A stretch of 64,000 nucleotides of DNA, taken from sequence record NC_070991.1; one strand, written 5' to 3'. Positions 30,830 through 33,509 of the stretch are shown piece after piece. Made by a program: the position numbers and the translations under genes. The notes below the pieces were generated by a model. That model worked only from the letters and a program-made list of their open reading frames with translations, had not been told where the DNA came from and did not search any database. Source of the stretch: Escherichia phage vB_EcoP_WFI101126. Position 1 is the stretch's first letter. Every line of letters starts with the position of its first letter.

Positions 30830-31039
30830 TTAATATTCCTTGATTGGGGATACCACAAAACCACCAAGAGGTGAGGTAAAAGATTTATGTAAGCTTATTT
30901 TGCTATAAATCTTTGGAGCCATCTTAAGAGCCTTCTTAAAACGACGAGCATCTTTACGAGTAGCAAAATGCTCTGTAACAGGTATAGAATGGTCTTGGTA
31001 GATATAATACATCACCGTCCAGTATTTTCCCATAATCAA
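30830..31039 (-). CDS. small protein, member of TR(K/Q)xAR..KK family
   Basis: ATRKDARRFKKALK motif, C-terminal Tyr; paralogous to 32894-33509 trio. Confidence 0.4.
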   Translation of the reverse strand: MIMGKYWTVMYYIYQDHSIPVTEHFATRKDARRFKKALKMAPKIYSKISLHKSFTSPLGGFVVSPIKEY

Positions 31040-31308
31040 ACACCTAGTGCAGTAGTTAAAAATGCTTTCAGGTTTGCCTCAGTCTGCATACCAGAGAGGC
31101 TGTAGTGTGCACCACTGTTACGGTCAGGTACGACGAAAGCAGGTATGCTTCGTACACCATATTTAACAGCTTGTTCACGACCATCTCCTTCAAGGATGTT
31201 AATCTCTTCCACTTCTACATCAAACTCCCTAACAACCTTCTCAAAGGTAGGAGCCATTGCTTTACATGGAGCACACTGATCACTATAAAACTTAATTACT
31301 TTACTCAT
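31036..31308 (-). CDS. thioredoxin-like protein
   Basis: CAPC active-site-like motif at conserved position, downstream cis-Pro (SIPAF). Confidence 0.7.
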   Translation of the reverse strand: MSKVIKFYSDQCAPCKAMAPTFEKVVREFDVEVEEINILEGDGREQAVKYGVRSIPAFVVPDRNSGAHYSLSGMQTEANLKAFLTTALGV

Positions 31309-31498
31309 TCTATTCCTTGTTAATAAACAGATTGATATGACGCTGGGTAGCAGGAACAACAATAAAAGATTTATACTGACCTTTTGCTAAGTCATGAGCA
31401 ATCTTCTTTGTCTGACCAAGACCCATCACACAGCCACTAACGATAATGGCATGTGCTTGTAATTCTTCAGGTAGGTTTAGTTTCACTCTTTGGGTTCC

Positions 31499-31684
31499 TT
31501 ATAGCATACAAAGAATAATAACAAGAGGTAGTGTTATAGCAAAATGTACCAGAACAACACTACCTAGCTTGATAGCTTTAACATCCTCTTCTGCTGGGTT
31601 TTCTTTAATTGCTAAATTTCGAGCTTTATATATAACAGTACCAACTATTAACGACCACACGGCCCACACAATCAGTGAAATCAT
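31499..31684 (-). CDS. small two-TM membrane protein (paralog 1)
   Basis: Two hydrophobic helices flanking charged loop. Confidence 0.35.
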   Translation of the reverse strand: MISLIVWAVWSLIVGTVIYKARNLAIKENPAEEDVKAIKLGSVVLVHFAITLPLVIILCML

Positions 31685-31693
31685 ATCAAATCC

Positions 31694-31873
31694 TTATGCA
31701 GTCAGGAGGTGAAGCAGGAATGGGATAACAACAGCTACGATAACCATGATAGTTGATGCTGTTTGAATCTCACCTTTCTTATCAGGAGTTTCTTCAATAA
31801 GCTTACCAGAAGCCCAATAAATACCACCACCAATAAAGATAGCCCAAATACCCCATACGATTGCTGATAACAT
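31694..31873 (-). CDS. small two-TM membrane protein (paralog 2)
   Basis: MLSAIVWGIW... similar to 31499..31684; below track cutoff. Confidence 0.3.
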   Translation of the reverse strand: MLSAIVWGIWAIFIGGGIYWASGKLIEETPDKKGEIQTASTIMVIVAVVIPFLLHLLTA

Positions 31874-31934
31874 ATATCTATATCCTTATAAATAAGTTCG
31901 CCCCACCTCGGGTTAGGAGACAGGGCGGAGGTTT

Positions 31935-32513
31935 TTAGTAAGACACGTCACCACTTGAATGGGACATGTTGCTCTTGACGAAGTAGCAATACTTGCCAAG
32001 ACCTTCATTAATTTCTTGAAGCATACTCTGATCGACAGGGTAGGATGCTAAATCGCCATCAAACTCATCCATCTTCTCAATAATACACATCAAGGTCATG
32101 CACATATCAGAGAGCATACCGTCCATATCCAGATCAGCATTACCCTCTGAGAACCAAGCATGGGAGAGGTAGTTAGCTGCTGTAGCATCCACCTTAACAC
32201 AATGGTATCGCATACGCTCAGCAATACGATCTCCTACTTGTCGTGCGTAATCTTCCAGCTCATCAAACATACCATGAACACCCTGAAATCCTGCACCAGA
32301 GACATTCCAGTGGTAGTTCTTAGCTTTGATATGCAAGAGTTCCATGTTAGTTTGTAAGCAGCTTAGGATGTGTTCTAGGCTGTTTCCACTAATCATACCC
32401 TGCATAGTTTCAAGGCGAGAGATTGAAAGCTCAGACCGGTCTAACATGTTATATTCTGCACGACCCATCTCAGGTAAATCAAAGACATTCTTATGCATTT
32501 GGGTTTTCTCCAT
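31935..32513 (-). CDS. Dps-like ferritin-fold protein
   Basis: HWNVSGAGFQGVHGMFDELEDYARQVGDRIAER matches Dps ferroxidase-site pattern. Confidence 0.6.
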   Translation of the reverse strand: MEKTQMHKNVFDLPEMGRAEYNMLDRSELSISRLETMQGMISGNSLEHILSCLQTNMELLHIKAKNYHWNVSGAGFQGVHGMFDELEDYARQVGDRIAERMRYHCVKVDATAANYLSHAWFSEGNADLDMDGMLSDMCMTLMCIIEKMDEFDGDLASYPVDQSMLQEINEGLGKYCYFVKSNMSHSSGDVSY

Positions 32514-32820
32514 CAAGTTCAACTGAGTTAGCAACGTTACGTGCAATATTATCCATTACCTGCTGGGTAATTACGATGCAGTTCTGTGGGTCTACTGACT
32601 TAGAACGCCCCATTTCAGGGTCATACACCTTAACTCGCTTAGCAGTTGAACCTGTAACCTGAAGAACCTTCAACAGATATCCCTGATTACCAATAGACCA
32701 AGCAACAACATCACGATTCTTGATAAAGCGACCAAGCATATCACGATGATAAAACTGTTGCATCACCTTGGATTTTGTAATCTCTTCAGTGGGCGGGGCC
32801 ACTTTACTCAAATCTAACAT
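32491..32820 (-). CDS. hypothetical protein
   Basis: ORF track; promoter-like motif 40 nt upstream. Confidence 0.35.
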   Translation of the reverse strand: MLDLSKVAPPTEEITKSKVMQQFYHRDMLGRFIKNRDVVAWSIGNQGYLLKVLQVTGSTAKRVKVYDPEMGRSKSVDPQNCIVITQQVMDNIARNVANSVELDGENPNA

Positions 32821-32860
32821 AACTCTCTCCTGTAAAAATACAAATTCTTATTGTACTCTA

Positions 32861-32869
32861 TATACATTT
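32861..32869 (-). promoter_or_regulatory. phage-type promoter motif variant (AAATGTATA on - strand)
   Basis: 8/9 match to TAATGTATA, 40 nt upstream of start 32820. Confidence 0.35.
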
Positions 32870-32893
32870 GAGAGTTACCATATCTACTACCAA

Positions 32894-33103
32894 TCAGTAA
32901 TAAATTACTTTAGACATAAAAGAACCCGAGCTAGGGTCTTCGTACCAGCGATGAATGTCAGCACTTTTAACAGTTCCTATTAGAGCTTTCATGTTCTTTT
33001 TAGCGACACGAGCCTCTTTGCGAGTGTTAAACAGTTTGATATTATCTTTACCTAAGTGTTGTTTCTGTTCCCAAACAACACGAACAGCCCACATCTTTTT
33101 CAT
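32894..33103 (-). CDS. small protein, TR(K/Q)xAR..KK family
   Basis: NTRKEARVAKKNMK motif, ends YY. Confidence 0.4.
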   Translation of the reverse strand: MKKMWAVRVVWEQKQHLGKDNIKLFNTRKEARVAKKNMKALIGTVKSADIHRWYEDPSSGSFMSKVIYY

Positions 33104-33312
33104 TAGTAATGTACCTTTCCGCTGATATAAATACGACCAGAAGAATACTCTTTGGCCTTATGGATACTGATACTGTTGACCACGTCACCAATAAGCATAG
33201 TCTTTTTAAAATCTCTAGCTTGTTGGCGAGTGGGCAGTGCAGTCATAGTCATACCACCTGATGCCCACTTAATCTTTGCTAACCAAAATTGTCTCATAGT
33301 GATTGGTCTCAT
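33103..33312 (-). CDS. small protein, TR(K/Q)xAR..KK family
   Basis: PTRQQARDFKKTML motif, ends HY. Confidence 0.4.
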   Translation of the reverse strand: MRPITMRQFWLAKIKWASGGMTMTALPTRQQARDFKKTMLIGDVVNSISIHKAKEYSSGRIYISGKVHY

Positions 33313-33509
33313 TAATAATAAACCTTGCTGTTGGCAAAAAGAGCACCTTCGTTATTCACAATAGCTTTTCCTATTGTAATCTTACCTGACAGACCTATCC
33401 CCTTAAAAAGCTTCTTAATTCGACGGGCGTGCTCTCGAGTATTAACAAAATCTACAGATTTTATATCACCTGTCTTGTTATCATGTACACGAACAATCCA
33501 CTTTTTCAT
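33312..33509 (-). CDS. small protein, TR(K/Q)xAR..KK family
   Basis: NTREHARRIKKLFK motif, ends YY. Confidence 0.4.
   Translation of the reverse strand: MKKWIVRVHDNKTGDIKSVDFVNTREHARRIKKLFKGIGLSGKITIGKAIVNNEGALFANSKVYY

What the first reader, a model, noticed from the sequence alone, without database searches (positions are those of the whole stretch)
30830..33509. Second small-protein family (TR(K/Q)xAR..KK motif, C-terminal Tyr), four copies
ORFs 30830..31039, 32894..33103, 33103..33312 and 33312..33509 (65-69 aa) share a central motif (ATRKDARRFKK, NTRKEARVAKK, PTRQQARDFKK, NTREHARRIKK) and end in Y or YY. Three are tandem with adjoining or overlapping stop and start codons. Function is unknown.
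Basis: seen in the sequence. Interest (0 to 1): 0.45.

Follow-up and report, generated by a model that had tools for sequence, protein, structure and literature searches.

The report
Small basic paralog family in kuravirus
Four real, related genes in a phiEco32-like coliphage encode ~67-residue, strongly basic proteins from a fast-evolving, lineage-restricted family (PHROG 4939; phiEco32 genes 69-71) whose function is unstudied and whose predicted fold matches no solved structure.

Summary
The window is a phiEco32-like coliphage (Kuravirus). All four match PHROG 4939 (unknown function) full-length at E 1e-22 to 1e-27. Pairwise scores beat shuffles (z 5-11). The TR..AR..KK motif occurs only in these four ORFs. 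D, C and B equal phiEco32 genes 71, 70 and 69. They end the early unit just upstream of a gp36-type middle promoter. A lies in the middle unit between thioredoxin and ThyX.

The family is confined to phiEco32-like phages and always occupies these two slots, with 2-4 copies per genome. The four types are old, discrete clades. All members are basic (pI 9.8-10.8). They are under purifying selection (dN/dS ~0.28) but evolve much faster than neighbouring enzymes and are mosaic between phages.

AlphaFold gives a confident beta-beta-alpha-beta-beta fold with no significant match in PDB. No Pfam, NCBIfam or PADLOC family matches.

Function is not established. My best inference (about 0.35) is polyanion or nucleic-acid binding through the invariant Arg/Lys helix. 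Inhibition of host proteins is the close rival. The family is already catalogued, uncharacterised and of moderate interest.

The parts
30830..31033 (-). Paralog A (67 aa, pI 9.9, net +8). Slot-2 copy between thioredoxin and ThyX, inside the middle transcription unit. Absent from phiEco32, SU10 and EP335.
   Evidence: ORF. phrog_4939 E 8.5e-22. ATG start with AGGTG Shine-Dalgarno. 99% identical to Paul gp066. Slot occupancy.
32894..33103 (-). Paralog B (69 aa, pI 10.1, net +9). Ortholog of phi32_69. Last gene of the tandem array and of the early unit. Present in all eight annotated phage genomes assigned to paralog types.
   Evidence: (E 4.7e-27). AlphaFold model with pLDDT 86.7.
33103..33312 (-). 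Paralog C (69 aa, pI 10.6, net +9). Ortholog of phi32_70. Its start shares one base with the stop of D (TAATG), and its stop shares one base with the start of B. Present in all eight annotated phage genomes assigned to paralog types.
   Evidence: (E 1.6e-27).
33312..33509 (-). Paralog D (65 aa, pI 10.3, net +9). Ortholog of phi32_71. First gene of the array. Its ATG overlaps the stop of the upstream 68-aa gene (ATGA). No D-type copy in ECBP2; EK010 has only a very divergent slot-2 copy that groups nearest to D.
   Evidence: (E 3.4e-25).
32861..32868 (-). AATGTATA, the core of the phiEco32 gp36-holoenzyme middle/late promoter consensus tAATGTAtA. It lies in the 73-nt gap between the stop of B and the 109-aa gene, and marks the early/middle boundary.
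   Evidence: Motif located. Consensus and positions from PMC8948821. SU10 layout from PMC4281155: early = CDS69-125, middle = CDS25-68, promoter upstream of CDS68.
33506..33712 (-). Unrelated 68-aa gene (phrog_2347, unknown function), translationally coupled to D. Not a family member. No tblastn match in ECBP2, EK010 or EP335, and not annotated in phiEco32.
32491..32820 (-). Conserved 109-aa gene (phrog_10984; phi32_68 / SU10 CDS68). First middle gene, and the invariant downstream anchor of slot 1.
   Evidence: (92-100% identity).
33713..34246 (-). dCTP deaminase, the upstream anchor of slot 1.
   Evidence: Pfam DCD E 3.5e-34. Anchor role.
31036..31308 (-). Thioredoxin, the upstream anchor of slot 2.
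   Evidence: Pfam Thioredoxin E 4.5e-13. Anchor role.
30149..30814 (-). ThyX thymidylate synthase, the downstream anchor of slot 2.
   Evidence: Pfam Thy1 E 2e-43. Anchor role.

Best explanation
The four ORFs are expressed, non-structural accessory genes of a phiEco32-like phage. They encode four anciently diverged paralogs of one lineage-specific family (PHROG 4939; phi32_69-71 plus a slot-2 copy).

Each protein is a single ~67-residue, strongly basic alpha+beta domain (beta1-beta2-alpha1-beta3-beta4). Three are made from the 3' end of the sigma70-driven early transcript by coupled translation, and one from the middle transcript.

Shown: paralogy, purifying selection, charge, predicted fold, genomic placement, rapid and mosaic evolution, and lineage restriction.

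Inferred mechanism: each paralog binds a polyanionic ligand, most likely nucleic acid (phage or host DNA or RNA). The contact surface would be the family-invariant basic stripe R28-R32-K35(-K36-K39) that starts at the T27 N-cap of the only helix. The variable loops (residues 12-19, 40-47, 54-58) would give each paralog its own specificity. The role would lie in host takeover, regulation or protection of phage nucleic acid.

W5, A31 and T27 are read as structural residues (core packing and helix cap). The invariant C-terminal Tyr, always the last residue, is read as an anchored chain end.

Confidence that these are real paralogous protein genes is above 0.95. Confidence in the nucleic-acid/polyanion-binding mechanism is about 0.35.
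For: Real genes and paralogs.

Purifying selection: median dN/dS is 0.27-0.29 in each of the four ortholog groups.

Charge: all 29 members from 8 genomes have pI 9.8-10.8 and net charge +6 to +10.

Conservation: across about 124 sequences the positions at 98% or more, apart from the start Met, are W5, T27, R28, A31, R32, K35 and Y69. R28 and R32 are 100% conserved and K35 is 99%. Conserved surface basic residues across paralogs that are otherwise 25-35% identical point to a shared ligand type. Variation is concentrated in the loops.

Helical periodicity (inference): residues 31/34/38 form the hydrophobic face, and 28/32/35/36/39 form one contiguous flank.

Fold: pLDDT 86.7, pTM 0.72. Independent BFVD models of what appear, by length and identity, to be A-, C- and D-type homologs superpose at TM 0.65-0.90.

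Timing and placement: the AATGTATA promoter lies directly downstream of B, consistent with the published SU10 and phiEco32 maps.

Coupled translation: TAATG/ATGA overlaps, and an AAGG Shine-Dalgarno lying 10 nt upstream of each start, inside the K-V (or K-G) codons near the end of the preceding gene.

Old, maintained paralog clades: at least 46% identity within a clade and at most 38% between clades. B- and C-types are present in all eight typed genomes.

Against: Basic charge is not distinctive in this phage: 14 of 63 small minus-strand ORFs have pI of 9.8 or more.

The invariant Arg/Lys residues sit on the rim of the helix rather than its fully exposed face. They could instead be structural, for example by salt-bridging the invariant C-terminal carboxylate, or could bind an acidic protein surface.

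I had no model coordinates, so solvent exposure and electrostatics were not computed.

Fast, mosaic evolution is more typical of proteins in conflict with host proteins than of generic nucleic-acid binders.

SU10 proteomics did not detect gp69-71, although this is weak evidence for small Lys/Arg-rich proteins.
Confidence: 0.35

Rival explanations
1. Host-protein inhibitors or anti-defence factors. Each paralog binds and neutralises a different host protein, such as a defence-system component, nuclease or acidic regulator. The conserved basic helix would be a shared docking element and the variable loops would set target specificity. The array would be an arms-race accessory locus.
For: The family evolves much faster than its neighbours. 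Against NJ01 and Paul, dN is 0.15-0.23 for the family versus 0.000-0.014 for the enzymes, and dN/dS is 0.15-0.45 versus 0.1 or less. Amino-acid identity is 28-99% versus 92-100% for Dcd, the 109-aa protein and the primase.

The pattern is mosaic between phages: Paul has B and C at 97% but D at 66%, while SU10 has D at 92% and B at 74%. Copy number varies between 2 and 4 or more. The genes sit at the end of the early host-takeover unit.

Gordonclarkvirinae are reported to be highly resistant to restriction-modification and other defence systems, with no known mechanism (PMC11990801).
Against: The four types are old and individually conserved across genera. B and C are present in every typed genome, rather than showing the patchy presence typical of anti-defence genes.

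The family-wide invariants are basic surface residues, which points to a shared ligand and not to diverse targets.

Confidence: 0.3
2. Subunits of a hetero-oligomer. B and C (with or without D and A) assemble into one complex through their open beta-sheet faces. Translational coupling would ensure matched stoichiometry. This is compatible with either of the two readings above.
For: Stop and start codons overlap, and the Shine-Dalgarno elements are embedded in the preceding gene. At least two tandem copies are present in every complete slot-1 locus, and B- and C-types always co-occur. A single helix covers only one face of the predicted four-stranded sheet, leaving the other face free (inference).
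Against: B and C do not co-vary. In NJ01, B is 77% identical to the window copy while C is 97%, and in SU10 the figures are 74% and 87%. Tight coupling is the norm for most small genes in this operon, including the unrelated 68-aa gene.
Confidence: 0.15
3. Cargo of mobile or selfish cassettes. The copies are passengers of homing-endonuclease-type insertions in recombination hotspots and do nothing for the phage.
For: HNH endonuclease genes occupy the same slots in some relatives: EP335 between thioredoxin and ThyX, and L010 after the dCTP deaminase. Adjacent genes show recent inter-genus exchange; the 58-aa and 61-aa genes are 100% identical to those of ECBP2.
Against: Family members are present without any HNH gene in most genomes. 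Position and paralog type are conserved across genera. The genes are under purifying selection.
Confidence: 0.04
4. Not genes: chance ORFs with a chance shared motif.
For: None beyond their small size.
Against: See: profile E-values down to 1e-27, 0.005 motif hits expected against 4 observed, dN/dS of about 0.28, and orthologs annotated in about 90 phage genomes.
Confidence: 0.01

Closest known systems
PHROG 4939 / phiEco32 phi32_69, phi32_70, phi32_71 (hypothetical proteins of Gordonclarkvirinae)
   Same: This is the same family. All four proteins give full-length profile matches. B, C and D are positional orthologs of phi32_69/70/71. The window proteins are 97-100% identical to annotated proteins of phages Paul and 1-6bf.
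   Different: Nothing differs. The family carries no functional annotation, and I found no paper that mentions these genes. The paralogy, the two-slot organisation and the clade structure are described here and not, as far as I could find, in the literature.
Small accessory ORF arrays interspersed among nucleotide-metabolism genes in T4-like phages (such as the nrdC.x, tk.x and cd.x ORFs). This comparison rests on my own knowledge, not on a test.
   Same: Both are short, tightly packed, translationally coupled genes of unknown function wedged between conserved enzymes (here Dcd, Trx and ThyX). Both vary between related phages and share their slots with homing endonucleases.
   Different: Here the ORFs are paralogs of one family with old, maintained clades, and at least two copies are always present. 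No sequence relationship to T4 ORFs was detected.
Small basic nucleic-acid-binding proteins of about 7 kDa (Sso7d/Cren7-type chromatin proteins; the KKxAK helix N-terminus of double-stranded RNA-binding domains). Leads recalled from memory only.
   Same: They share the size (about 65-70 aa), a pI of about 10, multiple paralogs per genome, and a [ST]-[KR]-x-x-A-[KR] motif at the N-terminus of a helix that follows a beta-hairpin.
Generic two-layer alpha+beta sandwiches (ferredoxin-like/acylphosphatase-like, PsaD core, ERH)

Membership tests
PHROG 4939 (phage protein family, unknown function) | Significant full-length match to the family profile HMM | tested here: met
   All four match at E 8.5e-22 to 1.6e-27, covering profile positions 1-67 or 2-67 of 67.
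PHROG 4939 / phi32_69-71 orthology | Same genomic position as phi32_69/70/71, between phi32_68 and the dCTP deaminase phi32_72 | tested here: met
   The phiEco32 annotation gives the same order and gene lengths (210, 210 and 198 nt) as B, C and D. The slot analysis agrees.
Any Pfam-A / NCBIfam family | Score at or above the curated gathering threshold | tested here: not met
   The four proteins have no Pfam hit at E of 1 or less. Among 34 family members scanned at E of 10 or less, no family recurs. The only NCBIfam hit is acylphosphatase at 15.2 bits against a cutoff of 105.
Known defence or anti-defence components (PADLOC-DB models; DNA-mimic anti-restriction proteins such as Ocr/ArdA) | A profile match, or for DNA mimics a strongly acidic surface | tested here: not met
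   PADLOC gives no hit at E of 1 or less. The proteins are basic, with pI 9.8-10.8.
Double-stranded RNA-binding domain (dsRBD) | alpha-beta-beta-beta-alpha topology and a Pfam dsrm profile match | tested here: not met
AP2 / lambda-integrase Arm-type three-stranded-sheet DNA-binding domains | beta-beta-beta-alpha fold with a profile match | tested here: not met
Sso7d/Cren7-type small chromatin proteins | SH3-like five-stranded barrel | tested here: not met
Nucleic-acid-binding protein (functional class) | Direct binding to DNA or RNA | not testable with these tools
   Only indirect evidence is available: charge and the invariant Arg/Lys helix.

The most novel reading that the evidence does not exclude
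The family is a previously unrecognised class of small basic early proteins, with a fold not yet seen in solved structures, that binds phage or host nucleic acid. It would contribute to the unexplained, near-universal resistance of Gordonclarkvirinae to restriction-modification and other defence systems, for example by shielding incoming or replicating phage DNA. The obligatory B/C pair would act as a heteromer, and the variable copies would extend its specificity.
Probability: 0.08. Interest if true: 0.75.

Novelty: already known. Interest (0 to 1): 0.35.

Why it matters
Kuraviruses are abundant E. coli phages with a broad host range. They are used as therapy candidates, and their early "host-takeover" genes are essentially unstudied. 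The BASEL study found them strikingly resistant to restriction-modification and other defence systems, with no known mechanism (PMC11990801).

This family has several properties that make it a well-defined, small and testable candidate set for that biology:
- It is always present in at least two copies.
- It is expressed at the early/middle boundary.
- It evolves fast and is strongly basic.
- Its predicted fold has no solved relative.

If the proteins turn out to be ordinary accessory proteins, the work still provides a cleaner annotation. That includes the corrected start of gene A, the four-clade paralog structure, the two-slot organisation, and an apparently unannotated copy in Salmonella phage 7-11.

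Tried and rejected
1. Homology to known families. Pfam (four proteins, then 34 members at E of 10 or less), NCBIfam, PADLOC and PDB sequence profiles gave nothing recurrent or above threshold.

4. The "integrase" annotation in this region in several GenBank records belongs to the Dps-like gene and is irrelevant.

5. A fifth copy or distant relatives in the window. None was found. The other small basic ORFs are unrelated.

6. Locus retrieval from IMG/VR. The family alignment was too divergent, and three distant members gave no confirmed loci. Direct contig look-ups replaced this approach.

7. Hetero-oligomer test with a linker-fused C-B construct and a genome-paired alignment.

8. Literature. 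There is no mention of phi32_69/70/71. The HIDEN-SEQ essentiality preprint does not cover kuraviruses. SU10 proteomics did not detect these products.

9. Basic charge as a discriminator. It is only weak, because 14 of 63 small ORFs in this phage have pI of 9.8 or more.
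Full report
**What the window is.** The region 30-36 kb is 90-96% identical in DNA to about 97 Escherichia and Shigella phage genomes of the phiEco32 group (Gordonclarkvirinae, genus Kuravirus), such as NJ01, 172-1, Paul and Ptacy1532. 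On the minus strand the gene order runs, in the direction of transcription: primase-helicase, 3'-5' exonuclease, nucleotidyltransferase, dCTP deaminase, a 68-aa ORF, D, C, B, a 73-nt gap, a 109-aa ORF, a Dps-like protein, small membrane ORFs, thioredoxin, A, ThyX.

**Checking the observation.** The four ORFs exist as described, and their translations carry the quoted motifs and C-terminal Tyr.
- The pattern TR..AR..KK occurs exactly four times in the six-frame translation of all 64 kb, only in these ORFs. Shuffled sequence gives 0.005 hits.
- Similarity is full-length. Smith-Waterman z-scores against shuffles are 5.0-10.9 for all six pairs.
- Each protein matches the same profile, phrog_4939, end to end at E 1e-22 to 1e-27.
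- An HMM of the four finds no further copy in the window, and other small basic ORFs are unrelated.
- D/C and C/B share one base (TAATG), and the preceding 68-aa gene overlaps D by ATGA. An AAGG Shine-Dalgarno lies 10 nt upstream of the start of each of B, C and D, inside the K-V or K-G codons near the end of the preceding gene. B ends the array and keeps K-V with AAA GTA codons, so the C-terminal motif is conserved at the protein level.
- One correction: A most likely starts at the ATG at 31033 (67 aa, AGGTG Shine-Dalgarno), as annotated in Paul, NJ01 and 172-1, and not at the TTG at 31039.

**They are real genes.** Within each ortholog group the median pairwise dN/dS is 0.27-0.29. About 90 GenBank phage records carry an ortholog of B, all annotated as hypothetical protein. 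In the type phage, B, C and D correspond to phi32_69, phi32_70 and phi32_71. phiEco32 has neither A nor the 68-aa gene.

**Transcriptional placement.** The core of the gp36-holoenzyme promoter consensus tAATGTAtA (PMC8948821) sits at 32861-32868, in the gap between B and the 109-aa gene. The SU10 paper assigns CDS69-125 to the early class and CDS25-68 to the middle class, with a promoter upstream of CDS68 and no terminator at the end of the early unit (PMC4281155). SU10 CDS69-71 are the B, C and D orthologs. D, C and B are therefore the last three genes of the sigma70-driven early transcript, and A lies in the middle unit. This placement is inferred by synteny with SU10 and phiEco32 and was not measured for this phage. 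SU10 proteomics did not detect gp69-71, which is weak evidence for such small Lys/Arg-rich proteins.

**Distribution and organisation.**
- A word-indexed search of 5.8 billion proteins found 99 clusters, all 64-87 aa apart from one 48-aa fragment, and where the contig was long it was about 70-80 kb.
- An exhaustive profile search of 1.84 billion representatives found only 27 clusters at 50% identity, all single-domain proteins of 47-79 aa.
- Every distant member whose contig I inspected sits in a phiEco32-like genome in one of the same two positions.
- Slot 1 (dCTP deaminase to the 109-aa gene) holds 2-3 copies in every complete locus, and at least 4 in the truncated contig L014. Slot 2 (thioredoxin to ThyX) holds 0-2.
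- HNH endonucleases sometimes occupy the same slots.
- Salmonella phage 7-11 (Grimontviridae) has one weak copy at 40945-41166 (E 2e-5, HKTRAEARAHKK). It is not annotated there and lies elsewhere in the genome. BFVD shows structurally matching uncharacterised proteins in SE131, GAP52, vB_CsaP_009 and Aeromonas LAh_8.
- The four window paralogs define four discrete clades, with at least 46% identity within a clade and at most 38% to any other window paralog, plus 15 more distant sequences. B- and C-types occur in all eight typed genomes across three genera, while A and D are dispensable. The duplications are therefore old and each type is maintained.

**Evolutionary tempo.** Against the same phages, family proteins are 28-99% identical, while Dcd, the 109-aa protein and the primase-helicase are 92-100% identical. 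Against NJ01 and Paul, dN is 0.15-0.23 for the more divergent copies versus 0.000-0.014 for the enzymes. dN/dS is 0.15-0.45 versus 0.1 or less. The pattern is mosaic: Paul has B and C at 97% but D at 66%, and SU10 has D at 92% but B at 74%. That implies gene-by-gene exchange as well as fast divergence.

**Protein properties.**
- All 29 members from eight genomes have pI 9.8-10.8 and net charge +6 to +10. Strong basicity is common among this phage's small ORFs (14 of 63), so it supports the idea without being distinctive.
- AlphaFold2 with a 68-sequence alignment gives pLDDT 86.7 and pTM 0.72, with the topology beta1(2-11), short turn, beta2(20-25), alpha1(28-39), beta3(45-56), beta4(60-63), C-terminal bridge.
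- Independent BFVD models of what appear to be A-, C- and D-type homologs superpose on it at TM 0.65-0.90.
- Across about 124 sequences, the positions conserved at 98% or more, apart from the start Met, are W5, T27, R28, A31, R32, K35 and Y69. Tyr69 is almost always the last residue. Variability is concentrated in residues 12-19, 40-47 and 54-58.
- From strand alternation and helical periodicity I infer that W5, A31, position 34 and position 38 form the core, and that T27 caps the helix. R28, R32, K35, K36 and K39 then line one flank of the helix as a continuous basic stripe. I had no coordinates, so exposure was not computed.

**Mechanism.** The following are shown: four maintained paralogs of a small basic domain, made early and middle by coupled translation, evolving fast, and restricted to one phage lineage and two genomic slots.

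The inferred mechanism is binding of a polyanion, most likely nucleic acid, through the invariant Arg/Lys helix, with the variable loops tuning specificity, in host takeover, regulation or protection of phage nucleic acid (about 0.35). The main argument is that paralogs otherwise only 25-35% identical share invariant basic surface residues. That suggests a common ligand chemistry rather than diverse protein targets.

The closest rival, at about 0.30, is inhibition of host proteins or counter-defence. It is favoured by the fast, mosaic evolution, the early expression and the reported but unexplained defence resistance of Gordonclarkvirinae (PMC11990801). It is disfavoured by the old, universally retained B and C types.

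A B-C hetero-oligomer (about 0.15) is compatible with either reading. The mobile-cassette-cargo and chance-ORF readings are disfavoured.

**Verdict.** The feature is an already catalogued, uncharacterised phage protein family, which makes it ordinary as a category. It is a compact and well-delimited target for experiments on kuravirus host takeover. Interest is 0.35.

Noticed in passing
window 31499-31684 and 31694-31873 (minus strand): Two adjacent small predicted membrane proteins (61 and 59 aa) are paralogs of each other: 33% identity over 58 residues, E 2e-10. This is another tandem small-protein duplication, lying between the Dps-like gene and thioredoxin.
   Followed up: partly
window 31310-31486 and 31499-31684 (minus strand): The 58-aa and 61-aa genes are 100% identical in protein to those of phage ECBP2, which belongs to a different genus (Suseptimavirus). 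Flanking genes are only 50-80% identical to ECBP2. This indicates a recent inter-genus exchange of a small cassette.
   Followed up: partly
window 26129-26413 and 26415-26669 (minus strand): Another adjacent pair of small basic paralogs (94 and 84 aa) shares a C-terminal TART.V.LR...GKF.SY...PFPKG block, with 50% identity over 40 residues at E 2e-14.
   Followed up: partly
window 34256-35569 (minus strand): The nucleotidyltransferase upstream of the dCTP deaminase is unusually variable: 83-88% identity within Kuravirus and 33-35% between genera, with dN/dS 0.14-0.35. A homolog on contig L010 carries a faint precomputed Pfam Gad2 (anti-Gabija) tag. The window protein itself gives only a sub-threshold PolyA_pol head-domain hit (E 6e-4). 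The BASEL paper speculates that this locus could encode a DNA modification.
   Followed up: partly
L007 (Salmonella phage 7-11, NC_015938) 40945-41166, minus strand: An apparently unannotated 73-aa ORF carrying HKTRAEARAHKK matches the family HMM at E 2e-5. It overlaps the 3' end of the annotated gp055. A 73-aa protein of the related phage SE131 matches the predicted fold in BFVD.
   Followed up: partly
window 52606-52681 (minus strand): A single tRNA-Arg (anticodon TCT) lies in the early region. It is the only Rfam hit in the window.
   Followed up: yes
L006 (EP335) 7852-8334; L010 5367-5876: HNH homing-endonuclease genes are inserted in exactly the slots that hold family copies in other phages: thioredoxin-ThyX in EP335, and directly after the dCTP deaminase in L010. 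This marks both slots as insertion hotspots.
   Followed up: partly
window 32491-32820 (minus strand): The 109-aa first middle gene (phi32_68, phrog_10984) is 100% identical across the kuraviruses compared and 92-97% identical between genera. SU10 mass spectrometry detected it. It has no Pfam domain. It is a strikingly conserved unknown next to the fast-evolving array.
   Followed up: no
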